A stretch of DNA of 64,000 nt from Thermoprotei archaeon. GTDB lineage: Archaea > Thermoproteota > Thermoprotei > Gearchaeales > WAQG01. Both the position numbers and the translations under genes were made by a program. The notes under the pieces were generated by a model. It saw nothing but the letters and a program-made list of their open reading frames with translations, did no database searches and was not told where the DNA came from. Each line of letters opens with the position of its first letter. Position 1 is the first letter of the stretch. Of the stretch, positions 7,757 through 60,665 are shown one piece after another. Location of the stretch: NCBI GenBank assembly GCA_049976445.1, contig JBMFIF010000002.1, positions 5,115 to 69,114 on the forward strand, read 5' to 3'.

Positions 7757-8431
7757 ATGATGAAAAGTATTAAAAGTCTGTTACATAGTAGAGAGCATGA
7801 TATTTTACGAATGGTAGTGGAACAAACTACGATTGTGCGTGATTCTATCTTTTTACTTGAGGATTTATTTCAGAAATTAAAGAATGGAGATTGGGGATAT
7901 GCGATAGAAAAAAGTTTAGAAATTGCTAGGGAAGAGCATAAGACTGATGTCAAGCGGGAAGAGATAGCTACTAAAATCTTTAAAGAAGCCTATATGCCAG
8001 ATTTCAGAGAAGCAATATTAATGCTAATTGAGAAAATAGATGAAGTAATAGATTCAATAAAGGATACTTCCAGAATTATAACGCAGAGAAAATTTGATGA
8101 AAAAATATTGAATGTTTTAGAGCCGGAGTTCACTGCTTATGTTAAATTATGCGTGAAAGCTGTTGAAACGATGTATTTTTCAATAAGCAAGCTTATTATT
8201 AACATTGATGAATCTATAAAACTTATAAATGAGATTAAATCGTTAGAGGTTCAAGTTGATGAGATGAAAATGTTATTGATAAAGCGCATATATAACATAG
8301 ATGAGAAAACAATCAGCATATTAACACTACTTCAAATTAAGGATGTTATTCTCTTTATGGATAATATTGTTGATAATGCTGAGGATGTCGGTGATGTTCT
8401 TCAACTCTTATACTTTACTATAAAAAGTTAA
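7757..8431 (+). CDS. DUF47 / PhoU-like phosphate transport regulator
   Basis: About 220-aa all-helical protein with the acidic repeats typical of the DUF47 family that normally accompanies PiT transporters. Its 3' end overlaps the convergent PiT gene by 14 nt. Confidence 0.55.
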   Translation: MMKSIKSLLHSREHDILRMVVEQTTIVRDSIFLLEDLFQKLKNGDWGYAIEKSLEIAREEHKTDVKREEIATKIFKEAYMPDFREAILMLIEKIDEVIDSIKDTSRIITQRKFDEKILNVLEPEFTAYVKLCVKAVETMYFSISKLIINIDESIKLINEIKSLEVQVDEMKMLLIKRIYNIDEKTISILTLLQIKDVILFMDNIVDNAEDVGDVLQLLYFTIKS

Positions 8432-9356: not shown

Positions 9357-9367
9357 TCCTATTCACC

Positions 9368-10051
9368 TCAAATAAAAGGAACTCCATACAATATTGACAT
9401 CAACGCCCTAACTATTATAATCCTCACACCAATCCATGCTGAAATTAACATAAATGTGGCAGCCAGTCTATTAGCACTTAAAATCTCACTTGCAGCATAA
9501 GATTGAAGAACAATACACCAAGTTATCGGTACAACATCAGCAATAAAAACATCTAATATATAATAAACACTATTAGACTGTGCCCATTTAATTAATGCCT
9601 CTTGAAATTGAATAGATAATGGAATACCAGCCTCATAATTGTACTGTATCCTTGGGAGAAAAAGTATTATAATTCCAGAAATTAACCGTCCAAGACCAAG
9701 TAATAACAGCAAATAAAACGAGAACAGCACGAATATCTTATAATACTCGTGCTTTACAGAAACAAGAACAAGAAGCATAGTCGAGAACAATATTAATCCA
9801 GACCCCTCAATAAGATATATAATAAATTCAGAAGAATAATACTGAAAAGTATTACCAAAAATCCCATTAATTTCTATGATCTTCGACGCAGAAGCATACG
9901 ACTTAAACATGGAAAAGAATAGAAATATCATGAAAGCCATCATCGGGCTTAGTAGATCCGGTGCTACTCGTTCTTCCTCCATTAATGCGCGTGGATTATA
10001 AACAATCCTCGCCAACCGCCTTATCATTCGTTTAACGATAATTAATGACAT
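9368..10051 (-). CDS. multi-pass membrane protein (Yip1-like topology)
   Basis: Basic N-terminus followed by about five hydrophobic segments. No catalytic motif recognised. Confidence 0.35.
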   Translation of the reverse strand: MSLIIVKRMIRRLARIVYNPRALMEEERVAPDLLSPMMAFMIFLFFSMFKSYASASKIIEINGIFGNTFQYYSSEFIIYLIEGSGLILFSTMLLVLVSVKHEYYKIFVLFSFYLLLLLGLGRLISGIIILFLPRIQYNYEAGIPLSIQFQEALIKWAQSNSVYYILDVFIADVVPITWCIVLQSYAASEILSANRLAATFMLISAWIGVRIIIVRALMSILYGVPFI

Positions 10052-10226
10052 ACATTCTCTTTAATTGTAATTATCGAAGTATAAATAAATTTATTCAACA
10101 AAAATAATACTCCTTTGGTAGCGTTAAGAAAGTAAGCTTAAACATCAAGAATAAATATGTCATTCTCTTTCTTCTTCTAAGGTAAACTTTATTTTGCAGA
10201 GTAAGATAAAAATAAGTGGTTAGTGA

Positions 10227-12443
<2,217 letters not shown>

Positions 12444-29123: not shown

Positions 29124-29138
29124 TGGTTGGATTATCCA
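29124..29138. promoter_or_regulatory. candidate operator copy 2 (TGGATTATCCA palindrome) at the btuF-like promoter/start
   Basis: Identical 15-mer tggttggattatcca, downstream of the TATA-like ctttaaatt (about 29111-29119). It overlaps the annotated TTG start at 29127; the in-frame GTG at 29145 is an alternative leaderless start. Confidence 0.4.
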
Positions 29139-30383
29139 GACTTGGTGAATAACTTGAGTGATAGGAATACTCGTTACTTATTAAGTCTAATAATTATAAT
29201 AGTGATAGTACTGGGAGTTACTATACCTCTTTATATGGAAATTAATTCTTTAAGAGATGAAATTTCTAGATTACGTAATGATATATCAGCACTTAGTTTA
29301 AGTTCTAAGCAACTTACCTCACAGTTTAATAGTAGTCTCACACAATTAAATGCAGCTTATAAGAGCCTTGAAGATAGGTATAATAAATTATTTCAACAGT
29401 ATTCATCATTGTCTGAAAGTATTAAGTATCCTTTTACAATTACTGATGCTCTTGGAAGAACTGTAACGATAGTTTCAAGGCCAGTTCGAGTTATAAGTAC
29501 GGCACCTAGTGTGACAGAAATGCTTTTTGCTATAAATGCAGAAAAACTTATTGTAGGTGTTGATAAGTATTCAGATTATCCGCCTACAGTAAAAGATTTA
29601 GTTAAAAATAGTACAATTAAGCTGGTTGGTGGTTTTTCGACTGTTGATGTGGAGGCTATTGTAGCACTAAAGCCTGATATTGTATTTATGACACCGGGCG
29701 TGCAAACACCTTTCGTATATAGGTTAGCAGAACTTGGACTAACCGTCGTCGCTTTAAAGGAAGATAGTATATCGGATGTGTTTGATTCGATAATGCTCGT
29801 AGGGAGAATTCTTGATAAGATTGATGGGGCATTAAACGTTGTCGCATCTATGAAGTCTAAAATCACTTATGCGTTCTCAAAGGTTGAGAATTATATTAAA
29901 TCTGTTAATATTACAAGGGTTAAAGTGTATTGGGAAGTATGGCCTGAACCAATATATACCGTTGGTTCACAAAATTTTATAAATGATATAATTACACTAG
30001 CAGGAGGGGTTAATATTTTTGGTGATATAAAATCAGGCTATCCAGTCGTAAGTTCTGAGGAAGTTATAAACAAAACTCCTGATGTTATAATAACAACTGA
30101 TCATGGTGGGGTTTATGGATCGCCACAGGATGTATTAAATATGATCAGGAATAGAACTGGATGGAATGTAATACCAGCTATAAAAAGTAATAGAGTTTAT
30201 GTGTTAACGGGCCAGTTTGGGTCTATGTTTATAAGGCCTGGTCCAAGAGTTGCAGATGCAATTCTTCAACTTGCCGTAATATTATATCCTGAGGCATTTG
30301 GTATGAGTAAAATCATGATACCGAACATAATAAGCACATCGTTTAACGTTACAACATATATTAGTTTGTTAATTGTTTCATAA
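29127..30383 (+). CDS. BtuF/FhuD-type (class III) substrate-binding protein, membrane-anchored, with N-terminal coiled coil
   Basis: N-terminal TM segment, a heptad-like Ser/Leu-rich stretch, then a periplasmic-binding-protein core (RVISTAPSVTEMLFAI, ALKPDIVFM, TPDVIITT). Followed by FecCD permease and ATPase genes. Confidence 0.7.
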   Translation: MDYPDLVNNLSDRNTRYLLSLIIIIVIVLGVTIPLYMEINSLRDEISRLRNDISALSLSSKQLTSQFNSSLTQLNAAYKSLEDRYNKLFQQYSSLSESIKYPFTITDALGRTVTIVSRPVRVISTAPSVTEMLFAINAEKLIVGVDKYSDYPPTVKDLVKNSTIKLVGGFSTVDVEAIVALKPDIVFMTPGVQTPFVYRLAELGLTVVALKEDSISDVFDSIMLVGRILDKIDGALNVVASMKSKITYAFSKVENYIKSVNITRVKVYWEVWPEPIYTVGSQNFINDIITLAGGVNIFGDIKSGYPVVSSEEVINKTPDVIITTDHGGVYGSPQDVLNMIRNRTGWNVIPAIKSNRVYVLTGQFGSMFIRPGPRVADAILQLAVILYPEAFGMSKIMIPNIISTSFNVTTYISLLIVS

Positions 30384-31410
30384 TACAATGAGCAGTAATT
30401 ATATACAAAGGAGATATTCCCGCCTTATTTTTTCTGTTATTGTTCTAATCATGTTAGTAGGAGTTTTAAGTATATTATCCATTAGTGTTGGTTCTGCGTT
30501 TATAAATCTGCCGGAATCTTTAAAAGCTTTGGTTGATTCTGATAACGTTGATGTATATACAAGAATTATAATATGGGAGATTAGAGTTCCTAGGACATTA
30601 AGCGCTATTTTTATAGGAATGTTGATGGCTTTAGCTGGGCTTTTTATGCAGACTGTTACTCTGAATCCTCTTGCTGATCCTTATTTAACAGGTATGGCTT
30701 CTGGTGCACTGTTAGGTGTTAGTATAACTATTGTGCTTTCACCTTTAATCGTTAGTCCTTATGTTATAGTTATCTCAGCGTTCTTTGGAGCCTTGTGCGC
30801 CATGATATTAACACTTCTAATTGCAAGTAAATTTCGCTTAGATCCAATAGGACTCATACTGGGAGGTGTTGCAGTCTCTATGATTTTTTACTCATTTTCT
30901 GCGATACTTCAGTTTATTGGAGGTGAAAAGATGGTTATGATAATTATATGGAGTCTTGGAAGCTTGAGTACTGCATCATGGTCAAGAACATGGTTTACTG
31001 GCATTACTGCAATAATTCTTATACCCCTTTCTATAATTATGTACAAATCGTTGAATGCTTTATTACTTGGTGATGAGAATGCACAAAGTATTGGTGTAAG
31101 TCCGAAGTTAACACGATCATTTTCCTTGCTAATATCCTCAATTGCCACGGCAATCTCAGTGTCAATGTTTGGTGTGATAGGCTTTGTTGGATTAGTAGCA
31201 CCTCATTTAGCACGTCTCGCATTAAGGAGCGGTGATCATTTAATAGTCATACCAGTCACATGTCTTGTTGGATCCGCTATCATGCTTTTAAGTGATGTGA
31301 TAGCTAGAATAATAGGTTCTCCTGGAGAATTTCCGTTAACTCCTATAATGAGTTTAATTGGTGCTCCGCTACTTATTTATTTAATGAGTAGGAGGTTTAA
31401 AAATGGTTAA
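30373..31410 (+). CDS. btuC: FecCD/BtuC-family ABC permease
   Basis: About 10-TM protein with a typical FecCD pattern (RVPRTLSAIFIGMLMALAGLFMQTVTLNPLADPYLTG ... GAPLLIYLM). Confidence 0.85.
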   Translation: MFHNTMSSNYIQRRYSRLIFSVIVLIMLVGVLSILSISVGSAFINLPESLKALVDSDNVDVYTRIIIWEIRVPRTLSAIFIGMLMALAGLFMQTVTLNPLADPYLTGMASGALLGVSITIVLSPLIVSPYVIVISAFFGALCAMILTLLIASKFRLDPIGLILGGVAVSMIFYSFSAILQFIGGEKMVMIIIWSLGSLSTASWSRTWFTGITAIILIPLSIIMYKSLNALLLGDENAQSIGVSPKLTRSFSLLISSIATAISVSMFGVIGFVGLVAPHLARLALRSGDHLIVIPVTCLVGSAIMLLSDVIARIIGSPGEFPLTPIMSLIGAPLLIYLMSRRFKNG

Positions 31411-32179
31411 ACTAATCATAGATAATCTTTCTGTTAATTATGGTTCAATAAAAGCATTAGAAGATATTAGTATAAAACTTGACAAAGGCATGATGGTATC
31501 AATAATAGGACCTAACGGTTCTGGAAAGACAACACTTCTCAGATCTATAGCAAGAATAGTAAAACCAGTAAAAGGTGTAATCTATATTGATGGAAAAAAT
31601 ACTAACGAACTATCATTAAAAGATCTAGCTCATCATGTATCATACACATCTACATTGAAAGTAAAAGAGGGTTTTGAACTCACAGTGGGCGATATAGTTT
31701 TTATGGGTAGATATCCAAGAACTGGATTTATGATGAGTCATACTGATGAAAGAATTGTGAACGATGTATTAAATAAGTTTCGCATTACTCATTTAATGAA
31801 TAGAAAAATAGATGAGCTTAGCGATGGTGAACGGCAAAAAACCTTTTTAGCAAGAGCCTTAGCTCAAGAATCAGAAATAATACTTGTAGATGAACCATTA
31901 GCGCATCTTGATCTAAAAGCACAACTTGAAGTCTTAAAAATACTTAAAAATGAAGCAAACGATGGAAAGCTTGTAATAATGACCTCACACGAGATAGACT
32001 TACCGATTAAATACAGTGATGTATTAATAGTAATGAAAAAAGGAGAAATATTAGCAGCAGGAAAACCTAATGAAATACTAACAGAAAAAATAATAGAAAA
32101 TGCTTATGGTGTTAAATGTCGTATAATCAAAGATAAAGAATATTCACTTATAGTACTTCTTGACACACTCAGTGATTAG
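31403..32179 (+). CDS. btuD: ABC ATPase (BtuD/FepC type)
   Basis: Walker A GPNGSGKTT, signature LSDGERQ, Walker B IILVDEP. AGGAGGT SD 6 nt upstream of the ATG. Confidence 0.85.
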   Translation: MVKLIIDNLSVNYGSIKALEDISIKLDKGMMVSIIGPNGSGKTTLLRSIARIVKPVKGVIYIDGKNTNELSLKDLAHHVSYTSTLKVKEGFELTVGDIVFMGRYPRTGFMMSHTDERIVNDVLNKFRITHLMNRKIDELSDGERQKTFLARALAQESEIILVDEPLAHLDLKAQLEVLKILKNEANDGKLVIMTSHEIDLPIKYSDVLIVMKKGEILAAGKPNEILTEKIIENAYGVKCRIIKDKEYSLIVLLDTLSD

Positions 32180-32181
32180 TA

Positions 32182-33282
32182 ATGAAGGAATTAAAACAAC
32201 CAGTACACGGTGGTAGAGTATGGGATGCAGCAGAAAAACTCAACATAAACGTTGAAAAGATTATAGATTTTAGTACAAATACAAATCCATTAGGACCTCC
32301 AAAACAATTAATAACAACATTAATAAAAAATATTAACACTGTTGCTTATTATCCAGATCCTGACTATAGAACATTAAGGATGGAATTGGCAAGGTTTTAT
32401 AACATTAATGAAGAGAATATTATAGTTGGTAATGGTGCAACTGAACTTATACATCTATTTGCACAAACATTCATCTCAGAAAATGACAGAGTAATAATAC
32501 CAATACCCACGTTTGAAGAATACCAATATGCATCACAGAAAGTTAGCGCAAGAATTATTTATATAAAGTCAAAAAACAATATGCACATAAACATAGACAA
32601 AATAATATCAAAAATGAACAATACAAAGGTCATATTTGTATGTAATCCAAATAACCCAACAGGAATATTAGAAAAACAAGAAGATATACTCAATCTAATA
32701 AAAGAGGCTAATAAGAGAAACGTACTAGTTTTTCTTGATGAAAGCTTTATGGATCTAGTAGTTACAAAAAAGCCGTACACGTTAATAAGATCAGTAAACA
32801 TGTTTGATAATCTTTTTATAATAAGATCACTAACAAAAATCTTCAGCATACCCGGATTAAGGATAGGTTTTGGTGTATCTTCAAAGTACTTAATAAAAGA
32901 ACTTAATAAACATAAAATACCATGGAATGTCTCAACACTTATTGAAAAAACTATTCCAGAAGCACTAAAATATGCAAGACAATATCTAAAAACATCAAGA
33001 AAAATAATCAAACAAGAAAGAAACTATATGATAAGTGAACTATCGAAAATTGATGGTATTAAAGTAATAAGCGGTGATGCTAATTTTCTCTTCATAGATA
33101 TAAGTGAAACTGGACTCACATCATCAGAATTAGCAGATCAATTAATAAAACATCGTATACTAATACGAGATTGTAGCACTTTTACAGGACTGAACAACTC
33201 GTACATAAGAATAGCAATAAAGAAACACCGAGAAAACATACTACTAATAAATGCTCTGAAAACAATAGTGATAAGAAAATGA
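32182..33282 (+). CDS. cobD: L-threonine-O-3-phosphate decarboxylase (CobD; class I/II aminotransferase fold)
   Basis: N-terminal VHGGRVW, HisC-like PLP fold (SLTKIFSIPGLRIGF carries the PLP Lys). Context directly upstream of cbiB. Confidence 0.7.
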   Translation: MKELKQPVHGGRVWDAAEKLNINVEKIIDFSTNTNPLGPPKQLITTLIKNINTVAYYPDPDYRTLRMELARFYNINEENIIVGNGATELIHLFAQTFISENDRVIIPIPTFEEYQYASQKVSARIIYIKSKNNMHINIDKIISKMNNTKVIFVCNPNNPTGILEKQEDILNLIKEANKRNVLVFLDESFMDLVVTKKPYTLIRSVNMFDNLFIIRSLTKIFSIPGLRIGFGVSSKYLIKELNKHKIPWNVSTLIEKTIPEALKYARQYLKTSRKIIKQERNYMISELSKIDGIKVISGDANFLFIDISETGLTSSELADQLIKHRILIRDCSTFTGLNNSYIRIAIKKHRENILLINALKTIVIRK

Positions 33283-34235
33283 ACTCCTTCCACACAAGTA
33301 TAATAATTTTAGTATTAGCAGTACTCATAGATATATTATTTGGAGAACCTCCACTCAAAGTTCATCCAGTAGTTTGGGTTGGTAGATTAATTAAATATTT
33401 GGAACGTTACTGTCATGGAGGAAGCACTCAACTAGAGAAAATTAAAGGTACGATGATGGCTATATCAGTAATTATAATATCCATCACAATAACATACATC
33501 GCTTTAAAAATAGTACAGTCTTATCTCGGTTTATATGGATACATAATAATAGCATCTATAATATTCAAAACAACTTTTTCAATACGATCCATGAAAGATC
33601 ACATAAAACCAATAGCTATCTCGTACGAGAAAAATAATAAAGAAAAGGCCAAAGTATTATTGTCACGAGTCGTAAGAAGAAATCCCTGGCAACTCACTGA
33701 TGAACAAATAATCTCAGCTGCAATAGAGACGACAGCAGAAGGCATAGTAGATGGTATAACATCAGCATTGTTCTATTACAGTATACTTGGAATACCAGGT
33801 GCAATAATGCAACGAGTTATAAACACATTGGACTCAATGGTTGGGTATAAAGATGAATATTATAAGAATGTAGGATGGTTCTCAGCAAAATTAGATACAA
33901 TAATAAACTTTATACCAGCTCGTCTCACAGCAATTACTATAGTACTGGCATCATTAATTTTAAAAAAAGATTATAAATTAAGCTTTAAAATAGCATTAAC
34001 AGACCATAAAAATACTGAAAGTCTTAATGCGGGATGGCCAATGTCAGCAATGGCAGGCGCTCTAAGAATACAACTAGAAAAACCCGGACATTACAAACTT
34101 GGGATTCCAATGCAAAAACTAAAGCCAGAACTCATATACGATGCATTAAACATAATGTATACATCAACAACACTTTTCATAATAACAATAATAATTCCTA
34201 TACTTATTCTCTTTAATATCTACCTATTTTTATAA
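33279..34235 (+). CDS. cbiB: adenosylcobinamide-phosphate synthase CbiB
   Basis: DILFGEPPLKVHPVVWVGRLI N-terminal signature and polytopic membrane topology. Confidence 0.8.
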   Translation: MNSFHTSIIILVLAVLIDILFGEPPLKVHPVVWVGRLIKYLERYCHGGSTQLEKIKGTMMAISVIIISITITYIALKIVQSYLGLYGYIIIASIIFKTTFSIRSMKDHIKPIAISYEKNNKEKAKVLLSRVVRRNPWQLTDEQIISAAIETTAEGIVDGITSALFYYSILGIPGAIMQRVINTLDSMVGYKDEYYKNVGWFSAKLDTIINFIPARLTAITIVLASLILKKDYKLSFKIALTDHKNTESLNAGWPMSAMAGALRIQLEKPGHYKLGIPMQKLKPELIYDALNIMYTSTTLFIITIIIPILILFNIYLFL

Positions 34236-34342
34236 TTAAAAAACTTACCAGAAAGCACGTGTTCACAAAATGAAATGATCTGATTTTTCGTTATCATTTA
34301 GTTATTTGCGTTAATTTTAAAATATAAGTTTTATAAATTATT

Positions 34343-35158
34343 TTGATAAAAATGTGGTATTTAGATACTCTAGACCGTAAACCTTTAGGTAGAACAAGAG
34401 AAACTGTACCTGCGATCGGTATTGGAACATGGGCTGTAAGGGACTTTAATAAAGCCGAAACAGCTTTAGTTAAAGCAGTAGAGCTTGGGCTTAATATGAT
34501 AGATACTGCAGAAATGTACCACACAGAAGAACTTGTAGGTAAAGTTATCAAAAAGGTTGGTAAAGAGAACGTTTTCATAACAACTAAACTTTTACCTGAA
34601 CACTTTTCAGATGTTGACAATGCATTAAATGCAGCTAAATTAAGCCTTTCAAGATTAGGAATTAATATTGTCGATTTAATTCTAATACACTGGCCTAGAA
34701 CCTTCACACCCATCGAAAAACAAGTCAGAATACTAGAGGCAATAGCCAACGCAGGGTATTCCAGATACATAGGTGTGAGTAATTTTAATGTTAACCAGCT
34801 TTCAAAAGCAACACAATCAACCAAAAAACATGAAATAGTAGTAAACCAAGTAAAATATAGCGTGTTAGATCGAACAATAGAGGATAACTTATTATTATAT
34901 GCTATAGAGCATGGTATAACAATACAAGCATACACACCATTAGAGAAAGGTAAGGTTTCAAACAATAAAATTTTATCTGAAATAGGTAAAAAATACAATA
35001 AGACACCAACACAAGTAGCATTAAATTATCTTATCTCTAACCCCATGGTGACTGCAATACCAAAAACAGAAAAAATCGAAAGAGTATTAGAATTTAAAGG
35101 ATCATTAGGATGGAGACTTATGAAAGAGGACATAGAATTCATTAAGAGCAAAATTTAA
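34343..35158 (+). CDS. aldo/keto reductase
   Basis: AKR blocks IGIGTW, IDTAEMYHTEELVG, LILIHWP, IGVSNF. About 271 aa. Confidence 0.8.
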   Translation: MIKMWYLDTLDRKPLGRTRETVPAIGIGTWAVRDFNKAETALVKAVELGLNMIDTAEMYHTEELVGKVIKKVGKENVFITTKLLPEHFSDVDNALNAAKLSLSRLGINIVDLILIHWPRTFTPIEKQVRILEAIANAGYSRYIGVSNFNVNQLSKATQSTKKHEIVVNQVKYSVLDRTIEDNLLLYAIEHGITIQAYTPLEKGKVSNNKILSEIGKKYNKTPTQVALNYLISNPMVTAIPKTEKIERVLEFKGSLGWRLMKEDIEFIKSKI

Positions 35159-35194
35159 CCCTAAAAACCTTTAGCTTATCCAGCTATCCTTTCT

Positions 35195-35243
35195 CTGACC
35201 TCTTCCCCACCCTGAAGGGCGAAGTTTGTCCTTCTTTTATCAA
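35195..35243 (-). repeat. IS200/IS605 right-end-like relic, inverted copy of the 26.5-kb relic
   Basis: The reverse complement reads tgataaaagaaggacaaacttcgcccttcagggtggggaagaggtcaga. This matches 26526-26561 plus 26648-26672 almost base for base. Confidence 0.5.
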
Positions 35244-35298
35244 CGAAGAGTGAAGCTTAAATAAATTTTTCAAATAGAAGAATCGTAAGTGAACAAAA

Positions 35299-36411
35299 AT
35301 GAATAACACTCAAAACGTAAAAATCTATTTTAAAGATAATACACTCATCATCGAATCAGCATCAGAAATGGAAGTACTGAGTAGTGCTGTATTCAATGGT
35401 GGAAGACAAAAAGCACAATATATAATAAACTATAAGGTTTCTAAAACCTTTGATGATCCAAAACCAGCACTATACCTAAAAAATGTAATAGAAAAACTAG
35501 GATTACCTCACGATTCAACAATAGGATTAATGACAGCTGCTGATGTTCACAATGCTTCAATAATTAATGAAGGACCAGTTACAGCAATAATTACTGCAGG
35601 CCTTTCAAATACAGCAACCGCCGGTGATGATATAGCAGTACAAAACATCGGAACGATTAATATGATTATTATAGTAAATGGATTACTAAACGAAAACGCT
35701 TTTGTAGATGCAATAATAACTGCCACAGAAGCAAAAACAGTAGCACTTGATCAATTAGATATTATAAGTAGAGTATCAAGAAAAAGAGCAACAGGAACAA
35801 CAACTGATTCTATAGTAATAGCATGCACACAACAAGGTGAAAGATATGAATATGCAGGCACAGCGACAAAAATAGGTAATATGATAGCTAAAAGTGTCAT
35901 AAAAGGTGTTTTAGAAGCCATAAAACTCCAGGAAAATATAACATCATCTAGACCAATATTAAAAAGATTAGAAGAAAGAGGAATTACACTAAAGGATCTC
36001 GTAGAAACGGGTATGGAACTTTATATACATCACCCAAGCATGGGAACAATAGAGAACGCAAGAAAAACATTAGAAGAAATATTGATAGAATCAATGAATG
36101 ATATAAATGTTGCATCATTAATTATTGCCGGAATAAGGATAGAGGAGGAAGGAAGAAAGGGTTTAATACCTGGTCTTACAAGAGAAGAATTTGAAAAAGA
36201 TCCTGTAAATCTAGTGGCTGATGAGTTAATAGGAATGGCTATAGCTGATTACATAGCAGGTTCAAGAGGTATTTTTGAATATGTCAGGTTTGATAGAATA
36301 AAACCAGGCATTATCAGAAATCTAGGGCCCTTCATGGATGACATAATCGGAGCATTAATAGGTGGAGCGTCATCACTCATGTATACAAAATTACTTAAAA
36401 AACAGAAGTGA
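35299..36411 (+). CDS. cbiZ: adenosylcobinamide amidohydrolase CbiZ fused to a C-terminal CobZ/PgpA-like domain (CbiS-like architecture)
   Basis: CbiZ blocks LSSAVFNGG, IGLMTAADV, GTINMIIIV and AIITATEAKTVAL lie in residues 1 to about 210. An extra C-terminal domain of about 150 aa (GLIPGLTREEFEKDPVNLVADELIGMAIADYIAG) follows, as in the archaeal fusion with alpha-ribazole-phosphate phosphatase. Confidence 0.6.
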   Translation: MNNTQNVKIYFKDNTLIIESASEMEVLSSAVFNGGRQKAQYIINYKVSKTFDDPKPALYLKNVIEKLGLPHDSTIGLMTAADVHNASIINEGPVTAIITAGLSNTATAGDDIAVQNIGTINMIIIVNGLLNENAFVDAIITATEAKTVALDQLDIISRVSRKRATGTTTDSIVIACTQQGERYEYAGTATKIGNMIAKSVIKGVLEAIKLQENITSSRPILKRLEERGITLKDLVETGMELYIHHPSMGTIENARKTLEEILIESMNDINVASLIIAGIRIEEEGRKGLIPGLTREEFEKDPVNLVADELIGMAIADYIAGSRGIFEYVRFDRIKPGIIRNLGPFMDDIIGALIGGASSLMYTKLLKKQK

Positions 36412-37151
36412 TCAAGTTGATAAAACAATTAAAAGCCCTCTTATCATTTCTTACAATAATACCAGTAAAAGAGGAACACGATCTAAAAACAATTGCAGAA
36501 GGTATACACCTCTTTCCATTGATAGGATTTTTCACCGGAATCCTAACAGGATTTATAGCATACCTTATCTCAAGAGTATACCTAAGTCTTTTAACGGGAA
36601 TAATAGCAGTATCATTCCTGGAATTTATAACAGGACTTCACCATTTTGACGCATTGTTAGATTTTGGTGATGGTATTATGGCTAAAACAACACCAGAAAA
36701 GAAAATAGAAATTATGCATGATAAACAAACAGGAAGCGGCGGATTCTGGTTAGGTATTACAATAATTGGAATAAAAATATTTTCAATATCACAATTACAT
36801 GGATTACAACTCTTTACAGCAATAATTCTTTCAGAAATCTCCGCAAAACTTTCAATGGTAATAGGAATGTGGCTAGGCAACCCAGCTTACCCCTCTAGTA
36901 CAGCAGTACCGTTCATAGAAGAAGCACATAAAAACCCTAAAAAACCATTAATAGCTCTTATATTCTCATTATTCATAGCATTACTCTTCATGACAGAAGG
37001 AATATTAATGATAATTACAAGCATAATAGTGGCAGTAATCATTGAACATCTATCACAAAAACATTTTAAAGGTATAACTGGCGATGTATTGGGATCCATG
37101 GATGAAATAACATCAGCTCTCTCATTATTAGTATTAGTGAGCATAATATGA
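36408..37151 (+). CDS. cobS: cobalamin-5'-phosphate (adenosylcobinamide-GDP ribazoletransferase) synthase CobS
   Basis: LSFLTIIPV N-terminal motif, HHFDALLDFGD, membrane topology. 4-nt overlaps with both neighbours. Confidence 0.75.
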   Translation: MIKLIKQLKALLSFLTIIPVKEEHDLKTIAEGIHLFPLIGFFTGILTGFIAYLISRVYLSLLTGIIAVSFLEFITGLHHFDALLDFGDGIMAKTTPEKKIEIMHDKQTGSGGFWLGITIIGIKIFSISQLHGLQLFTAIILSEISAKLSMVIGMWLGNPAYPSSTAVPFIEEAHKNPKKPLIALIFSLFIALLFMTEGILMIITSIIVAVIIEHLSQKHFKGITGDVLGSMDEITSALSLLVLVSII

Positions 37152-37768
37152 TAAAAATTAAAGCTCTAATCATGGCAGGAGGAAAAGCAACCAGAATGAA
37201 TAACATAGAAAAACCCCTCATAAAAATATGCGGAACCACAATGATAGAAAGAATACTCAATGCACTAAAGAACACTAAGTGCATAGAAGATGTATATATA
37301 ACAACAAGTAAAAATACGAAAAACACAGAAATCCTACTTAAAACCTTAGGATATAAAACAATAACAACTTCAGGAGAAGATTATGTAGAAGACTTAAAAA
37401 ACACAATTATAAAACTAAACATAAAAGATCCCATATTAGTATTACCATCCGATCTACCATTAATAACACCAAATACAATAGAACAATTAATCAATATTTA
37501 CATACAAAACAACTCTCCACCAACAACGACGTTTTACATACCATTGCAACTACTAAAAACAAAAATACGAACAAACTACATAGAACAAATAAATAATATA
37601 AAAGTAATACCATCTGGCATTAGTATAATAAAAGGATCATACATTACGCAAAATGTAATACCGCAAATAAACATAATAGTCGAAAACACAGAATTAAGCG
37701 TTAACGTGAATACGTTATTAGATATAAAAATTGCACAATCAATTTTATGCAAAAGAAATAATAAGTAG
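37148..37768 (+). CDS. cobY: adenosylcobinamide-phosphate guanylyltransferase CobY (MobA-like NTP transferase)
   Basis: ALIMAGGKATRM nucleotide-binding N-terminus. About 200 aa. Position after cobS. Confidence 0.6.
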   Translation: MIKIKALIMAGGKATRMNNIEKPLIKICGTTMIERILNALKNTKCIEDVYITTSKNTKNTEILLKTLGYKTITTSGEDYVEDLKNTIIKLNIKDPILVLPSDLPLITPNTIEQLINIYIQNNSPPTTTFYIPLQLLKTKIRTNYIEQINNIKVIPSGISIIKGSYITQNVIPQINIIVENTELSVNVNTLLDIKIAQSILCKRNNK

Positions 37769-54721: not shown

Positions 54722-54729
54722 GTGATCTA

Positions 54730-55865: not shown

Positions 55866-56150
55866 GTTGGTAGTTGAATCATTTTAGGATAAATTTTATA
55901 CTGTTTTAAGAAATGATGGGTATGAATTGGTTCATACTAATCTGGTTCCACTACCGTTCTAGAGGGAAAAGAAATCAAATGCATAAGAGGACCCTACAAT
56001 CATATCAGGAGGAAGCTCCAGAAGAAGGGACTCCTAAAAAAGGATAGAGGAGGCATGAGCCCTCTTGAACTGGCAAATGAGGTTGGAGGATAAAGCCCCC
56101 AGCTGAACATCAGAAGCTCAGCCTTTTAGGAGTAGCTCATATAATCGACA
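55866..56150 (+). mobile_element. non-autonomous IS200/IS605-derived element: repeat DR-B copy 1 plus tnpB-tail relics
   Basis: 55866-55953 matches 60517-60605 and contains the hairpin gtatgaa-ttgg-ttcatac. 56000-56140 contains ...gaactggcaaatgaggttggaggataaagcccccagctgaacatcagaagctcagccttttaggagtagctc (tnpB-tail pattern). Confidence 0.45.
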
Positions 56151-56204
56151 TTATTGTGTATAATGAATCTCAGTACTTAAGCTCACCAATTTTTCTATAA
56201 TTAT

Positions 56205-56711: not shown

Positions 56712-57284
56712 TTATTGTACTTTAAATAAAACATCTATGATCTTTTGTATATATTCATAAGGTTGCTCTACGCGTTCAGCAAAATCCATAGAAATAACAT
56801 AATAAAATAAATTTCCAAGGAATATTTTTAAATAAAACTCATCGATCATTTTTCCAGTTAGGTTCTGTATTTTTTCTTTTAATTTGGTATAGTTTGAGTG
56901 ATGAATTTTTTTGAAGGTTTCTTTAATTTCACTGTATCTATTTGCTATTCCTATGGAATAAAGGAAAAGTTTTCTTTCAATGGGGTCATTGTATTTTAGA
57001 ATATATTTTAATGCTAGATCATTAAGCATTTCTTTAACATCATTATAATGTTTTTCTATTACATTGTTTAATACTTCAACTGGTGAAACACTGATAGCAA
57101 TCTCTTTGATTAATTGCTCTTTGCTTGTAAAATATGTATAAAATGTGCCTTTGGAGAGTTTAACTTTTTCCATTATTTCATCTACTGTAGTCAAGTCAAA
57201 ACCTTTTTCAGCGAATATTTGACGTGCAGCCATGATGATTAATTTCTTTTTTTCGTTATTGCTATTCCTCATAATCCTACACAT
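56712..57284 (-). CDS. TetR-family transcriptional regulator
   Basis: N-terminal HTH AARQIFAEKGFDLTTVDEIMEKVKLSKGTFYTYFTSKEQL followed by a helical ligand-binding domain. Confidence 0.8.
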   Translation of the reverse strand: MCRIMRNSNNEKKKLIIMAARQIFAEKGFDLTTVDEIMEKVKLSKGTFYTYFTSKEQLIKEIAISVSPVEVLNNVIEKHYNDVKEMLNDLALKYILKYNDPIERKLFLYSIGIANRYSEIKETFKKIHHSNYTKLKEKIQNLTGKMIDEFYLKIFLGNLFYYVISMDFAERVEQPYEYIQKIIDVLFKVQ

Positions 57285-57312
57285 AATTTAGTTCTGCATA
57301 GTTATATACTTT

Positions 57313-57332
57313 TTGGCTAACTAGTCAGTCAA
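57313..57332. promoter_or_regulatory. 20-bp imperfect palindrome, candidate TetR operator
   Basis: ttggctaactagtcagtcaa matches its own reverse complement at 16 of 20 positions. It lies in the 88-nt divergent region between the TetR gene and the radical SAM operon. Confidence 0.4.
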
Positions 57333-57372
57333 AAATATAAGTATCTTTAAAGAAATATATAAGTGAGAAATT

Positions 57373-58896
57373 ATGGGTAATACTAATGGTTCGAATTCAA
57401 TGGTTAATGCTATAGAATCATTTAAGGGTATTGTAGATAATCCATTGAGTAAGTATTTATTAAGATATTTAACTGGTTATTGTGAGAAGGATCATGAGAA
57501 TCGGTTAGAGGTTGCTCTTGAACTTTACTTAGGAATTAGGAAAGATGCTTGTTTTTCTTGTCGATCAGCTTCTAAGGTTGTTAGTTACATTGTTAAAAAA
57601 GGTGCAAAGAGTTTTGGAGTTAGTGAGGATCAATTAAAAAGTACTATGAAAGATTCGTATTGGAGAAGAGGTCTTATTAGTGTACTTAAAGGTATAGCAT
57701 TTTTTGGTGTTCGCAAGCCGTTTGTACCAGGGGCTCCGTTTCAAGTCGTATGGAATATAACCAAAGCGTGTAATATGAACTGTTTGCATTGTTATGAAAG
57801 CGCTGGCATAAAGGGTAATGATGAACTCACTTCTGAACAAATTCATCAGGGAATAGATATACTTGCTGATGCTGGCGTAACTATCTTAGCGTTTTCTGGA
57901 GGTGAGCCAACAATACATCCTAATATAGTAGAATTCATTAGTCATGCTCACAATAGGGGAATGTACGTAGCTATTGCTACTAATGGTTATGTTTTAGCCA
58001 ATAAGTATGTTATAAGAAAATTAAAGAGTGCAGGTTTAGGATATGTACAGATTAGTCTAGATGGTCTGAATCCAAACACTCATGACTCATTTAGAAGGGT
58101 GAAGGGTGCTTGGGAACATGCTGTTCGTGCAATAAAAAATAGTATTGAGGAAGGATTATTTGTTGAAGTAGCTACTACTGTTACAAAATACAATATTAAT
58201 GAAATACCTGAAATGATTAAGTTTGTCAGAAATCTTAAAGCTAATTGGTTTATGTTATATAATTTTGTCCCTACAGGGCGTGGGAAAGAGATTATAGAAA
58301 GTGATCTTTCACCGAGAGAACGTTTTGATCTTTTAAAATTAGCCTATTCAGAAACAGGTGATGGTGGTTTGCAAGTGCTTTCCACAGCTCCTCAGTATGC
58401 TGCTGTTGCGCAAATGTTTAATAAGAATGGTAAGAATATAATACCAACTCATTTCTATAATCCTGAATATAATGATCCAAAAATACGTCAGTTAGCAGAA
58501 TTTATTGGTGGTTGTGGTGCTGGGAGGTTTTATATATCGATCGAGCCAAATGGAGACATATATCCATGCGTATTCTTTCCACATGTAGATGAAGTAAAAA
58601 TCGGTAATTTGTTAAAAGATGATTTCGAAAAACTTTGGAGGGAACATGAGTTATTATGGAAATTACGAAATAAGGATATTTTAGAAGGATTCTGTGGTAA
58701 ATGTGCGTTTAGATATACATGTGGGGGGTGTCGAGCTCGTGCATATAATTATTTTGGCAACGTATTAGCACCTGACCCAGGATGCATTTTTAATTCTAAA
58801 GAATGGAATAAATTAAGGTCTGAATTGCTTATTAAATATCATGCAGAGGAAACACCAGCAGGTAATATTCTCATAAGAATAAATGATACACCATGA
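57373..58896 (+). CDS. radical SAM enzyme with C-terminal SPASM-type auxiliary cluster domain and about 110-aa Cys-containing N-terminal extension
   Basis: CNMNCLHCY (Cx3Cx2C), SGGEPT. SPASM cysteines CGAG...GDIYPC and [17 protein letters not shown]. The N-terminal region holds C..(22)..CFSC. Confidence 0.8.
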
Positions 58897-60341
58897 CGCG
58901 CATTATTCTCATAAATCCTATAGATAGAACTCAGATCACTAATAGGCTTGGACTAAAAGCACCACCACTAAATTTAATGTACCTTGCGTCTGCGCTTGAA
59001 AAAGCTGGATTCTATGTTAAAATTATAGATGCTAATCTTTATAATATACTACCGCATCAAATAGCAAGAGTAATAAAAGGGTTTAGACCTGATATTATTG
59101 GTTTAACAGCTGCAACCGCTACCATAAAAACTGCTTTACATTATGTATCAGAAATCAAAAAGGCTATATCAAACGTATTTACCATAATAGGTGGACCTCA
59201 TGTTACTTTTCTTCCAACAGAAACATTGAATATGTCAAAAGATTTAGATGCGGTAGTTATAGGTGAAGGTGAAGAAACCATCGTCAAGATAGCAGAATCT
59301 TATGAAAAAAGTAATCCGGAATGGCTTTCTAACATAAGAGGAGTGGCTTATAGGATAAAAAATCATGATTCAAGTAAAATAAAAATCACACCCCCAAGGC
59401 CTTTTATTAAAAACTTAGATTTAATACCATTCCCGGCTCGTCATTTAGTACCGTTTAACGAATATAAGCTGTACAACAAGGATACACCCATAGGTAGTAT
59501 GATTACAAGTAGGGGTTGCGTTTTTGCATGTAATTATTGTTCATCCTCGCACCTGATGGGAAGAATGTTTCGAGCACGCAGTTCAAAAAATGTAGTTGAT
59601 GAAATCGAAGAATTAGTATACAAATACAATGTTGATACAATCGAATTTATTGATGATATTTTCACTCTAAACAAAAAACGTGCATTAGAGATTGCTAAGG
59701 AAATACGCTCTAGAAAAATTGATATAAACTTTGTTGCATCATCTAGAGTTGATACTATAAACCGTGAATTATTAACAGAATTAAAAAAAGCTGGGCTTTC
59801 AACAATGTATTATGGTGTAGAATCAGGTTCAGAACGCGTTTTAAAATTAATGAATAAAAGAATCACGTTATCACAAGCGGAAAAAGCCATAAATGAAACT
59901 AAAAACATTGGTGTTAGTACACTAGCATCATTCATACTAGGTTATCCAGGTGAAACTCTTAATGAGATGTGGGCCACTATAAAATTCTCTATAAAACTTA
60001 ACCCAGATTATGCACAATTCTCCATACTCACACCATATCCTGGGACACCAATATACTATGAACTTAAACAAAAAGGATTAATCGCTACAGAAGATTGGGA
60101 TAAATACACAGTATTAGACCCAGTTATAGAATATGAAAAATTAGGATTAAGCAAACACATAGTCTCAAAAATGCTCAGAGAAGCATATTTAAGATTTTAT
60201 CTAAGACCAAGATACTTATTAAAACGAATAACAATGTTAAAGGCTCTAATATATACAATGATCAATACTTATATCTTACCTATTTTTCAACACAAAGACT
60301 CATTAGGTTGGTATAAGGACCTAAGCACTCATCACGATTGA
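58893..60341 (+). CDS. B12-binding-domain radical SAM enzyme (class B, COG1032-like)
   Basis: N-terminal Rossmann-like B12-binding region (IILINP ... [23 protein letters not shown] ... GEGEETI) then [11 protein letters not shown] (Cx3Cx2C). 4-nt overlap with the upstream radical SAM gene. Confidence 0.8.
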
Positions 60342-60516
60342 AGACAGAAGATTTTCACTCCTAAAATGCTCACCAATCTGTTGTCACTCCTTTAAACCTT
60401 CATTATAGAAAACTGTTCAAAAATATTACTGATAGAAATTTAATGCTTTTTTACATAATTTTTGTCCCTTAATCTTCATAAAGTGATGATGAATCTTTCA
60501 TCGTTGAGCTTATTTA

Positions 60517-60665
60517 TTGGGTAGTCGAATCATTTTAGGATAAATTTTATACTATCTTAAGAAAAGATGAGTATGGATTGGTTCATACTAACCTGACTCC
60601 ACCACATATTTATCAAGTAGCATTTTTCAAACTACAACACACACAATTATGTAGCAAAGCAAAAC
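60517..60665 (+). mobile_element. repeat DR-B copy 2 fused to a MITE-type right end
   Basis: 60517-60605 matches 55866-55953 (hairpin gtatgga-ttgg-ttcatac with a G-U-compatible change). 60625-60662 caaactacaacacacacaattatgtagcaaagcaaaac resembles the right end of the 12.5-kb MITE. Confidence 0.45.

What the first reader, a model, noticed from the sequence alone, without database searches (positions are those of the whole stretch)
57373..60341. Translationally coupled SPASM radical SAM and B12-binding radical SAM pair: tetraether-lipid synthase/ring-synthase-like, or an unknown modification pathway
The first enzyme is 507 aa, with Cx3Cx2C, two SPASM-type auxiliary cluster motifs and a Cys-bearing 110-aa N-terminal domain. 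In size and domain order it matches what I recall of the archaeal tetraether synthase (Tes / GDGT-MAS). The second is 482 aa with a B12-binding domain plus a radical SAM core, COG1032-like. It belongs to the class that includes the GDGT ring synthases GrsA/GrsB as well as many C-methyltransferases. In characterised Sulfolobales these lipid genes are, as far as I know, not adjacent. Here they overlap by 4 nt, sit under a divergent TetR regulator, and lie in a repeat-bounded cassette in the same window as a cobamide salvage island. I found no convincing precursor-peptide ORF nearby, which argues against a RiPP cluster. Either outcome is of interest: a regulated, possibly mobile membrane-lipid tailoring operon, or a new radical SAM pathway.
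Basis: inference. Interest (0 to 1): 0.65.

Follow-up and report, generated by a model that had tools for sequence, protein, structure and literature searches.

The report
GMGT lipid cross-linking and methylation operon
The two overlapping radical SAM genes are most likely the archaeal GMGT synthase (Gms) and its partner B12-dependent lipid methylase (Gmm), a membrane-lipid tailoring pair first described in 2024, so this is a new example of a known system rather than a tetraether or ring synthase or an unknown pathway.

Summary
Two ORFs overlap by 4 nt: 57373-58896 (507 aa: N-terminal domain, radical SAM, SPASM) and 58893-60341 (482 aa: B12-binding, radical SAM). A TetR gene is divergent, an 86-nt direct repeat flanks the block, and a cobamide uptake/salvage cluster lies 20 kb upstream.

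The Tes/Grs reading is only partly right. These are tetraether-lipid tailoring enzymes, but the first matches the published GMGT synthase Gms, not Tes. It is an AhbD-like radical SAM/SPASM core with a roughly 120-aa extra N-terminal six-helix domain. It is 57-60% identical over its full length to proteins that Li et al. 2024 list as Gms homologues. Similarity to the Tes structure covers only the radical SAM core.

The second gene sits where the GMGT methylase gene gmm sits. Its homologue follows the gms homologue in 37 of 85 other loci, including Methanothermobacter, a methylated-GMGT producer.

TetR-gms-gmm recurs in two related uncultured Thermoprotei lineages, with a conserved near-palindrome between the divergent promoters. 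The flanking repeat is a dispersed small element, not evidence of a mobile cassette. The window is not from Sulfolobales.

I had no verified Gms or Gmm sequence, so membership rests on an indirect chain. Verdict: new member of a known kind, modest interest.

The parts
57373..58896 (+). gms candidate (GMGT synthase). 507 aa: N-terminal six-helix domain (about residues 1-120; Cys 37/60/63), radical SAM core (CX3CX2C at 133/137/140), bridging region, and a 7-Cys SPASM domain (381-471).
   Evidence: ORF and Pfam. The AhbD and NirJ2 NCBIfam models match only residues 125-474, far below their cut-offs. It is 57-60% identical over 97-99% of its length to AEG18787.1 and KZX16868.1, which Li 2024 list as Gms homologues. 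The AF2 model has six N-terminal helices.
58893..60341 (+). gmm candidate (B12-dependent radical SAM tetraether-lipid C-methylase). 482 aa: B12-binding domain 16-133, radical SAM 203-365 (C209/C213/C216, the only Cys), and a hydrophobic C-terminal segment 446-465.
   Evidence: The 4-nt overlap with gms is seen. A homologue lies directly downstream of the gms homologue in 37 of 85 other loci (38 of 86 counting the window), including Methanothermobacter L066 at 55% identity. The second-best solved relative is the B12-dependent sp3 C-methyltransferase QCMT, 9CCB, after the diol dehydratase AprD4.
56712..57284 (-). Divergent TetR-family regulator. The start may be the second ATG at 57272. Inferred repressor of the gms-gmm operon and of itself.
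   Evidence: TetR_N E 2.2e-16. It is conserved next to gms-gmm in L081-L085. No ligand could be inferred from solved TetR structures.
57285..57372 (.). Divergent control region. It holds an invariant near-palindrome CTAACTAGTCAG (57317-57328) flanked by TATA-like boxes at 57300-57309 (for tetR, minus strand) and 57331-57340 (for gms). A GTGAG Shine-Dalgarno-like motif lies at 57363-57367.
   Evidence: Alignment of four lineages gives 85-91% identity here, against 77-87% for the flanking coding DNA. The sequence is shown. The operator and promoter roles are inferred, not shown.
60443..60466 (+). T-rich tract (GCTTTTTTACATAATTTTTG) about 100 nt after the gmm stop. Possible archaeal oligo-T terminator.
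   Evidence: Sequence read. This is inference only.
55869..55954 (+). Left copy of an approximately 86-nt dispersed repeat. It flanks the block but is probably not functionally part of it.
60520..60605 (+). Right copy of the approximately 86-nt dispersed repeat, 88% identical to the left copy.
   Evidence: A third copy lies in L086.
29127..37768 (+). Cobamide uptake and salvage cluster (BtuF/C/D-like, CobD, CbiB, CbiZ, CobS, CobY-like). It is a plausible supplier of the cobalamin cofactor for Gmm. It is not adjacent, and the link is inferred.
   Evidence: Pfam hits.

Best explanation
The locus is a TetR-flanked gms-gmm operon for tailoring membrane-spanning tetraether lipids.

Protein A is a GMGT synthase. 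It is a radical SAM/SPASM enzyme with three [4Fe-4S] clusters. Its extra N-terminal helical domain is said to form a hydrophobic lipid-binding pocket. [quoted passage not shown] Protein B is translationally coupled to A. It is the cobalamin-dependent radical SAM methylase that adds one to three methyl groups to the bridged alkyl chain. Cobalamin is plausibly supplied by the salvage cluster 20 kb upstream.

The divergent TetR protein most likely represses both promoters by binding the conserved near-palindrome between the two TATA boxes, and releases them on binding an unknown ligand.

Shown here: the gene anatomy, the motifs, the family-level similarity, the conserved synteny and the conserved intergenic core.
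Taken from the literature: the enzyme activities.
Inferred: that these two proteins have those activities, and the whole regulatory scheme.
For: Architecture.
- Garcia 2024 define Gms as an AhbD homologue with a roughly 100-aa N-terminal extension (COG4001) that is absent from AhbD.
- Li 2024 describe a six-helix N-terminal domain, then a radical SAM domain, a bridging region and a SPASM domain.
- In protein A the AhbD model covers only residues 125-474, at 241 bits against a cut-off of 500.
- The AF2 model (pTM 0.77) has six helices in residues 7-111, then the barrel and the SPASM region.
- Foldseek's best solved matches are SPASM/twitch enzymes (SkfB, SuiB, PqqE, anSME). SuiB is the structure Li et al. 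used to place the Gms clusters.

Similarity chain for A.
- A is 57-60% identical over 97-99% of its length to Methanobacterium paludis AEG18787.1 and Methanobrevibacter cuticularis KZX16868.1, at 685-830 bits.
- A is 59% identical to the M. ferruginis locus L033.
- Li 2024's Source Data list all three as homologues of the biochemically verified M. okinawensis Gms, at E 1e-100 to 4e-111.

Synteny.
- A homologue of B lies immediately downstream on the same strand in 37 of the 85 other loci.
- These include Methanothermobacter (L066: A 53%, B 55%).
- Garcia 2024 state that gms clusters with gmm in Methanothermobacter, Thermoprotei and Nitrososphaerota.

Protein B.
- It has B12-binding and radical SAM domains and a single cluster.
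- Its second-best solved relative is the sp3 C-methyltransferase QCMT.
- Its hydrophobic C-terminal segment resembles the C-terminal membrane anchoring predicted for the Gmm homologue Saci_1785.

Regulation.
- TetR-A-B is conserved in L081 and in L082-85 with different flanking genes.
- The intergenic core CTAACTAGTCAG is invariant across them.
Against: - I could not obtain any experimentally verified Gms or Gmm sequence (Tg, Tc, Pf or Mo). Membership therefore rests on a two-step chain and on published descriptions, not on a direct alignment or a tree.
- COG4001 itself could not be scored, because no COG or CDD library was available.
- Homologues of Gmm include enzymes with other specificities or chemistry: Cgm, Pgm and the desaturase Ted, each at about 31-40% identity. 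B's exact reaction is therefore less certain than A's.
- The AF2 model is of moderate confidence (mean pLDDT 72.5), with low-confidence loops around the cluster-binding motifs.
- Li 2024 argue that gms is restricted to obligate anaerobes. The lifestyle of this organism is unknown.
- Nothing here shows expression, TetR binding or a ligand.
Confidence: 0.8

Rival explanations
1. A is Gms, but B is not a GMGT methylase. Instead it would be a related B12-radical SAM lipid enzyme with a different substrate or chemistry. Candidates are methylation of unbridged or cyclised GDGTs (Cgm/Pgm-like), desaturation (Ted-like) or ring formation (Grs-like).
For: Homologues of Gmm at 31-40% identity carry out these different reactions. 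Garcia 2024 note that some gmm-encoding genomes lack gms, and that extra homologues form a 'Gmm2' clade of unknown role. I had no verified Gmm, Cgm, Ted or Grs sequence with which to place B.
Against: - B overlaps gms by 4 nt.
- B is 54-65% identical to the B12 enzymes directly downstream of gms in Methanobacteriaceae, Methanothermobacter and Nitrososphaerales. That is far above the 31-40% seen between the functionally distinct subfamilies.
- Methanothermobacter makes methylated GMGTs.
- B (482 aa) is shorter than the >495 aa filter used for Cgm homologues.
Confidence: 0.12
2. One reading: A is a tetraether synthase (Tes/GDGT-MAS) and B is a GDGT ring synthase (GrsA/GrsB), forming a GDGT synthesis and cyclisation operon.
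For: Both families are radical SAM enzymes of similar size that act on the same lipids. Grs enzymes are B12-binding radical SAM proteins like B. In T. guaymasensis, grs lies in the same cluster as gms and gmm.
Against: - Against the solved Tes (7TOL), A gives E 1.3e-13 and 53.6 bits over the radical SAM core only. Several unrelated SPASM enzymes score higher.
- The Foldseek TM-score to Tes is 0.35-0.36, at ranks 32-33.
- A matches listed Gms homologues at about 700 bits or more, including the N-terminal domain.
- B's closest gms-adjacent relatives occur in Methanobacteriaceae.
Confidence: 0.03
3. A is an AhbC/AhbD/NirJ-type tetrapyrrole-modifying enzyme or a RiPP/cofactor maturase, and B is a BchE-like or other small-molecule B12-radical SAM enzyme. 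Together they would form a non-lipid pathway.
For: The best NCBIfam hits for A are NirJ2, AhbD, TIGR04053 and AhbC. The best hits for B are BchE, HpnJ and ApyD. Public annotations of homologues include 'heme biosynthesis protein', 'PqqE' and 'AlbA'.
Against: - Every one of those models scores at half its curated cut-off or less: 248 against 500 for NirJ2, 241 against 500 for AhbD, 244 against 481 for BchE.
- None of them covers A's N-terminal domain.
- No precursor-peptide ORF and no tetrapyrrole genes lie next to the pair.
- Garcia 2024 showed that exactly this 'AhbD plus N-terminal extension' type is Gms.
Confidence: 0.03

Closest known systems
GMGT synthase Gms (M. okinawensis METOK_RS04425; T. 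guaymasensis WP_062369926.1; T. celer A3L02_02305; P. furiosus PF0647). Li et al. 2024 (PMC11186832); Garcia et al. 2024 (PMC11214058).
   Same: - AhbD-like radical SAM core.
- 7-Cys SPASM domain.
- An extra N-terminal helical domain of about 100-120 aa, with six helices in the model.
- Length of about 500 aa.
- Followed by a B12-radical SAM gene.
- Proteins 57-60% identical to A are listed as Gms homologues.
   Different: - It comes from an uncultured, deep-branching Thermoprotei lineage.
- It was not compared directly with a verified Gms.
- It is preceded by a divergent TetR gene, which the two Gms papers do not mention.
GMGT methylase Gmm (T. guaymasensis WP_062369928.1). Garcia et al. 2024.
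   Same: B12-binding plus radical SAM architecture, a single Fe-S cluster, and a gene position next to gms. Here the two genes overlap by 4 nt. It is 54-58% identical to the gms-adjacent enzymes of Methanobacteriaceae, including Methanothermobacter.
   Different: No direct comparison with Tg-Gmm was possible. Substrate preference (GMGT versus GDGT) and the number of methylations are unknown.
Cgm (Saci_1785), Pgm (T. aggregans) and Ted (DRO69_02625): Gmm homologues described in Garcia et al. 2025 (bioRxiv 10.1101/2025.10.20.683597).
   Same: They belong to the same B12-radical SAM lipid-modifying group. Like B, they have a hydrophobic or peripheral-membrane character. Their genes also lie near ligand-responsive regulators and amphiphile-handling genes.
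   Different: Those enzymes are not gms-linked. They act on unbridged GDGTs or desaturate them, and they share only about 31-40% identity with Gmm or with each other. The Cgm homologues collected were longer than 495 aa.
Tetraether synthase Tes / GDGT-MAS (MJ0619, PDB 7TOL/7TOM) and GDGT ring synthases GrsA/GrsB.
   Same: They are radical SAM enzymes that form C-C bonds in the same lipid class. The Grs enzymes are B12-binding radical SAM proteins.
   Different: A resembles Tes only in the radical SAM core (E 1.3e-13; TM 0.35) and has a different domain layout. Li 2024 note that the helical caps of Gms and Tes sit on opposite sides of the radical SAM domain.
AhbD (heme b synthase) and NirJ-type radical SAM/SPASM enzymes.
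   Same: These are the closest curated HMM families for residues 125-474 of A.
   Different: Scores are about half the family cut-offs, and these enzymes lack the N-terminal domain.

Membership tests
Gms (GMGT synthase) | Radical SAM CX3CX2C motif plus a SPASM domain with auxiliary-cluster cysteines (three [4Fe-4S] clusters) | tested here: met
   C133/C137/C140. The seven SPASM Cys are C381, C399, C441, C444, C450, C453 and C471, all invariant in 22 homologues.
Gms (GMGT synthase) | An N-terminal extension of about 100 aa, absent from AhbD, that forms a separate six-helix domain (annotated as COG4001) | tested here: met
   The AhbD HMM starts at residue 125. The AF2 model shows six helices in residues 7-111. 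The domain aligns across all homologues, including those listed by Li 2024. The COG4001 label itself could not be scored because no COG or CDD library was available.
Gms (GMGT synthase) | Separation from the AhbD outgroup | tested here: inconclusive
   By score, AhbD gives 241 bits against a cut-off of 500, and listed Gms homologues give about 685-830 bits. No tree with AhbD sequences could be built.
Gms (GMGT synthase) | Similarity to a verified Gms: E < 1e-80 to Tg-Gms (Garcia), or E < 1e-50, more than 30% identity and more than 420 aa to Mo-Gms (Li) | not testable with these tools
   No verified sequences could be obtained. The indirect chain is as follows. A is 60% identical to AEG18787.1, which is 40% identical (E 4e-105) to Mo-Gms. 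A is 58% identical to KZX16868.1, which scores E 1e-100 against Mo-Gms.
Gms (GMGT synthase) | Catalyses GDGT to GMGT cross-linking | not testable with these tools
   This needs expression and LC-MS.
Gmm (GMGT methylase) | B12-binding domain plus a radical SAM core, at least 400 aa | tested here: met
   PF02310 E 2.1e-25, PF04055 E 1.3e-26, 482 aa.
Gmm (GMGT methylase) | Gene clustered with gms | tested here: met
   The two genes overlap by 4 nt. Homologues are adjacent in 37 of 85 other loci, including Methanothermobacter.
Gmm (GMGT methylase) | Falls in the canonical Gmm clade (E < 1e-65 to Tg-Gmm, separate from MoeK5, Cgm/Pgm, Ted and Grs) | not testable with these tools
   No reference sequences were available. 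Indirect evidence: 54-65% identity to gms-adjacent enzymes, against 31-40% between the functional subfamilies.
Tes / GDGT-MAS | Full-length similarity to MJ0619 (7TOL) | tested here: not met
   E 1.3e-13 and 53.6 bits over A 128-327 only. Foldseek TMq 0.35-0.36 over 227-252 aligned columns.
GrsA/GrsB | Orthology to Saci_1585 or Saci_0240 | not tested
   No Grs sequence was available. The enzyme class (B12-radical SAM) is shared. Context and closest relatives favour Gmm.
AhbD / NirJ / AhbC | Score above the curated NCBIfam cut-off | tested here: not met
   NirJ2 248 against 500, AhbD 241 against 500, NirJ 203 against 515, AhbC 202 against 650.
RiPP radical SAM/SPASM maturase cluster | An adjacent precursor peptide, or a family-specific maturase model above its cut-off | tested here: not met
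   No conserved small ORF is present. All maturase models are far below their cut-offs.

The most novel reading that the evidence does not exclude
The most novel reading still open is that the divergent TetR protein is a ligand-sensing switch. It would turn GMGT cross-linking and methylation on in response to a membrane-active small molecule or a lipid intermediate.

That would be the first regulatory handle on GMGT synthesis. It would also fit a wider pattern in which gms is paired with a dedicated transcription factor:
- a divergent TetR in this lineage;
- a co-oriented TetR in 11 Methanobacteriaceae loci;
- a TrmB-like regulator in 14 Thermoplasmata loci.

This echoes the amphiphile-induced GDGT methylation reported for Cgm and Pgm.
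Probability: 0.3. Interest if true: 0.45.

Novelty: new member of a known kind. Interest (0 to 1): 0.25.

Why it matters
GMGTs (H-GDGTs) are used as environmental and palaeo-temperature or redox biomarkers, so it matters which organisms can make them. This locus adds an uncultured hot-spring-type Thermoprotei lineage to the likely producers of methylated GMGTs.

It also shows the two genes as a tightly coupled operon with its own regulator and a nearby cobamide supply. The conserved TetR gene and its candidate operator give a concrete, testable entry point to a question the published work leaves open: what signal controls GMGT formation.

Beyond that, the finding is an annotation correction, from 'radical SAM protein' to gms/gmm, rather than new biology.

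Tried and rejected
1. Obtaining a verified Gms, Gmm, Tes or Grs sequence for direct comparison failed.
   - The genome-contig scan kept only the best 80 loci (52-69% identity), none from the organisms whose Gms has been verified.
   - The supplementary models in Li 2024 are PDB coordinate files without SEQRES records, too long to read.
   - Garcia 2024 has no held supplements. The preprint tables list JGI and NCBI accession numbers only.
2. NCBIfam appears to have no Gms, Gmm, Tes or Grs model. None was among the 25 best of the 87 (A) or 43 (B) families matched, and every family listed is below its cut-off.
3. Rfam found nothing in the whole window at gathering thresholds. In the GC-rich intergenic patch it found only a weak C/D-box hit.
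4. I tested the mobile-cassette idea.
   - The 86-nt repeat is absent from the related loci L081-85.
   - It has one further copy in a metagenome contig in an unrelated context.
   - L081 keeps gmm-metallophosphoesterase-UbiA synteny without it.
   - I therefore rejected it as an att-like boundary.
5. Inferring the TetR ligand from solved structures failed. Only generic TetR hits appeared, and S. acidocaldarius FadR (6EL2) matched at the HTH only.
6. The window TetR and the Methanothermobacter TetR share only the HTH region: 35% identity over 81 aa. I make no claim that they are orthologous.
7. The Sulfolobales assignment was rejected on topoisomerase VI-B.
8. I searched for paralogues of A or B, or any Tes-like gene, in the window. 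tblastn found only the genes themselves.
Full report
**Observation**

ORF A is 57373..58896 (+, 507 aa) and ORF B is 58893..60341 (+, 482 aa). A's TGA stop overlaps B's ATG in the sequence ATGA.

Pfam gives Radical_SAM (128-285) and SPASM (381-444) for A, with nothing on residues 1-120. For B it gives B12-binding (16-133) and Radical_SAM (203-365).

A has 13 cysteines:
- C37, C60 and C63 in the N-terminal domain;
- C133, C137 and C140 (the CX3CX2C motif);
- a canonical seven-Cys SPASM set, C381, C399, C441, C444, C450, C453 and C471.

All are invariant in an alignment of 22 homologues. B has only the three radical SAM cysteines, C209, C213 and C216.

- a divergent TetR gene at 56712..57284 (-);
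- an 86-nt direct repeat at 55869-55954 and 60520-60605, 88% identical;
- a cobamide transport and salvage cluster, BtuFCD-like, CobD, CbiB, CbiZ, CobS and CobY-like, at 29127-37768.

**What the proteins are**

Curated family models do not claim either protein. A's best NCBIfam hits are NirJ2 (248 bits, cut-off 500) and AhbD (241 bits, cut-off 500), and they cover only residues 125-474. B's best hits are BchE (244 bits, cut-off 481), HpnJ and ApyD.

Among solved structures, the tetraether synthase GDGT-MAS (7TOL) matches A at only E 1.3e-13. The match covers the radical SAM core alone, and BlsE, SkfB, PqqE and CteB score higher.

Both proteins are nonetheless strongly conserved across archaeal phyla. 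Full-length identity is about 55-70% to proteins from Methanobacteriaceae, Nitrososphaeria, Thermoplasmata, Bathyarchaeia and Asgard MAGs. That level of conservation points to a specific, widespread enzyme pair.

**The literature identifies the pair**

Garcia et al. 2024 (PMC11214058) and Li et al. 2024 (PMC11186832) identified GMGT synthase, Gms.
- Garcia et al. describe it as an AhbD homologue with a 100-aa N-terminal extension, annotated COG4001, that AhbD lacks.
[quoted passage not shown] They report such clusters in Nitrososphaerota, Thermoprotei, Thorarchaeota, M. kandleri and Methanothermobacter.

**Tests of that lead**

Architecture. The AhbD model begins at A's residue 125. An AlphaFold2 model built on the 22-sequence alignment has mean pLDDT 72.5 and pTM 0.77. 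It shows six helices (7-21, 24-33, 44-53, 61-80, 85-91, 95-111), followed by the beta/alpha barrel and the SPASM region. Foldseek against the PDB ranks SkfB, SuiB, BlsE, PqqE and anSME first. Tes is at ranks 32-33 with TM 0.35-0.36 over the core only.

Similarity chain. The homologues I retrieved include Methanobacterium paludis AEG18787.1 (P0021, 60% identity to A over 99% of its length) and Methanobrevibacter cuticularis (P0080, 58%). The M. ferruginis locus L033 is 59% identical. The Source Data of Li et al. list exactly these three as Gms homologues of the biochemically verified M. okinawensis enzyme:
- AEG18787.1, E 4e-105, 40% identity;
- KZX16868.1, E 1e-100;
- BDZ68219.1, E 4e-111.

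The same table lists a 503-aa 'Sulfolobus sp.' MAG protein at 46% identity. Its length matches the 503-aa cluster that is 84% identical to A, but I could not confirm that it is the same protein.

Synteny. I fetched 85 loci encoding an A homologue. Eighty came from one-per-species genomes and five from contigs carrying close relatives of the pair. A homologue of B lies immediately downstream on the same strand in 37 of them, or 38 of 86 counting the window. One is a Methanothermobacter genome (L066): gms-like gene at 8085..9449 and B-like gene at 9450..10859, with 53% and 55% identity to A and B. Methanothermobacter makes methylated GMGTs.

Taken together these results make A a Gms with good confidence.

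B is very probably Gmm. It is 54-65% identical to the gms-adjacent enzymes. Functionally distinct relatives of Gmm share only about 31-40% identity with it or with each other. These are:
- the cyclised-GDGT methylase Cgm (Saci_1785);
- the promiscuous methylase Pgm;
- the desaturase Ted.

B's second-best solved relative, after the diol dehydratase AprD4, is the B12-dependent sp3 C-methyltransferase QCMT (9CCB). Its most hydrophobic stretch is C-terminal (446-465). That is consistent with the C-terminal peripheral-membrane binding predicted for Saci_1785.

**Limits**

I could not obtain any experimentally verified Gms or Gmm sequence, nor a Tes or Grs from a comparable organism. I therefore did no direct alignment or tree against the type members.

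COG4001 could not be scored. The claim 'is a Gms/Gmm' therefore rests on architecture, a two-step similarity chain, synteny and published descriptions. B's precise reaction is less secure than A's.

**Regulation and context**

The three-gene unit TetR-A-B recurs in two related uncultured lineages.
- In L081 (87% nucleotide identity) the downstream metallophosphoesterase-UbiA synteny is kept, but an IS605-type TnpB sits between gmm and the next gene.
- In L082-L085 (77% identity) the flanking genes on both sides are entirely different.

The TetR-gms intergenic region is more conserved than the coding DNA. It shows 85-91% identity over 60-86 nt. It contains an invariant near-palindrome, CTAACTAGTCAG (57317-57328). 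This lies between two TATA-like boxes, one at 57300-57309 for tetR on the minus strand and one at 57331-57340 for gms.

I infer a classic divergent, autoregulated repressor-operator arrangement in which bound TetR occludes the BRE/TATA region. This is inference only. Solved TetR structures gave no clue to the ligand.

A regulator next to gms is a recurrent theme:
- a co-oriented TetR-family gene directly upstream in 11 Methanobacteriaceae loci, including Methanothermobacter;
- a TrmB-like gene upstream in 14 Thermoplasmata loci.

The TetR proteins of the two groups share only the HTH region. Neither of the 2024 papers mentions regulators. The 2025 preprint links the related methylases Cgm and Pgm to amphiphile stress and to MarR-type regulators.

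**The repeat and mobility**

The 86-nt repeat is real, but it does not mark a mobile gms cassette.
- It is absent from L081-L085.
- A third copy, 91-93% identical, lies in a metagenome contig next to unrelated membrane-protein genes.
- L081 shows the same gmm-to-metallophosphoesterase junction without it.

The element folds as a closing stem with two hairpins, with z-scores of -4.1, -1.6 and -2.1 for the three copies. It looks like a small dispersed repeat, either MITE-like or a small RNA gene. DUF488, which lies inside the repeat-bounded segment, is not conserved with the module.

**Taxonomy**

The identical protein A is deposited from 'Thermoprotei archaeon' MAGs. Outside the window's own lineage (85-100% identity), the topoisomerase VI-B hits that carry an organism name are Methanomethylicia, Nezhaarchaeales and Bathyarchaeia at 55-57%. 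Two unnamed hits are closer, at 60-66%. No hit carrying an organism name is from Sulfolobales.

**Verdict**

The finding is a correctly observed gene pair whose best explanation is the known gms-gmm system for making and methylating GMGT (H-GDGT) membrane lipids. It is a new member of a known kind. The dedicated TetR gene with a conserved candidate operator is a modest, testable addition.

Noticed in passing
window 55869-55954 and 60520-60605; L086 2034-2121 (-): An approximately 86-nt dispersed element with three known copies (88-93% identical) in unrelated contexts. It is predicted to fold as a closing stem plus two hairpins (z -4.1, -1.6 and -2.1). It contains a TATA-like TTTTATAC. In the L086 copy it also has AUGAUGA...CUGA, which resembles C and D boxes but with only 22 nt between them. 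It could be a MITE-like repeat or a small RNA gene.
   Followed up: partly
window 55975-56124 (and 56116-56158, minus strand): An intergenic patch with 48% GC in a genome of about 32% GC, between the left repeat copy and DUF488. The only Rfam signal is a weak C/D-box sRNA hit (sR46, 20.9 bits against a gathering score of 50, E 0.0087). It may be an unannotated structured RNA or a gene remnant.
   Followed up: partly
L014, L016, L017, L020, L021, L023-L026, L044, L066 (for example L066 7371-7970); L060-L080 subset (for example L064 5133-5552): A transcription-factor gene directly upstream of gms recurs in other phyla. A co-oriented TetR-family gene is present in 11 Methanobacteriaceae loci, including Methanothermobacter. 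A TrmB-like winged-helix gene is present in 14 Thermoplasmata loci.
   Followed up: partly
L042, L060, L064, L065, L067, L068 (1961-3427), L071, L076: In eight Thermoplasmata/Thermoproteota loci, the gene directly downstream of gms is a different radical SAM protein of about 488 aa. It has a Radical_SAM Pfam hit only and no B12-binding hit. It may be a Grs-like or other lipid-modifying enzyme.
   Followed up: no
L012, L014-L016, L020-L027 (for example L022 10266-10844): A CDP-alcohol phosphatidyltransferase gene (lipid head-group synthesis) lies 1-3 kb downstream of gms-gmm in 12 Methanobacteriaceae loci.
   Followed up: no
L081 11669-12975, against window 60342-60660: In the 87%-identical relative, an IS200/IS605-type TnpB plus an HTH gene is inserted between gmm and the metallophosphoesterase gene. 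This is exactly where the window carries the right copy of the 86-nt element, so the junction appears to be an insertion hot spot.
   Followed up: partly
window 53084-55842; L081 6187-7548: Genes of penicillin-binding or beta-lactamase-type families sit just upstream of the TetR-gms-gmm block in two lineages. The window has a GH3 (NagZ-like) gene plus a PF00144 serine hydrolase. L081 has a Peptidase_S13 gene. This is curious given the reported induction of GDGT methylation by penicillin G in S. acidocaldarius, but it may be coincidence.
   Followed up: no
window 60739-62775: A 678-aa secreted calcineurin-like metallophosphoesterase with a long Thr-rich linker and a C-terminal transmembrane anchor. 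It is syntenic with a UbiA/MenA-like prenyltransferase (62805-63758, NF004617 at 239.1 bits against a cut-off of 239) and with a downstream ORF (63733-63984) whose L081 counterpart is an Rce1-like protease (PF02517). The same arrangement is seen in L081.
   Followed up: no
window 37797-37902 / 40482-40590; 26526-26561 / 35207-35242; 10887-11449 / 11706-12274: Other repeats in the window: a 109-nt direct repeat (78% identical) flanking the region after the cobamide cluster; a 36-nt inverted repeat (97% identical) spanning the cobamide island; and an internal 570-nt duplication (67% identical) inside the 736-aa ORF at 10233-12443.
   Followed up: no
window 35299-36411: The CbiZ (adenosylcobinamide amidohydrolase) domain is fused to a C-terminal PgpA-like phosphatase domain (residues 263-361). 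This is an unusual fusion within the cobamide salvage cluster.
   Followed up: no
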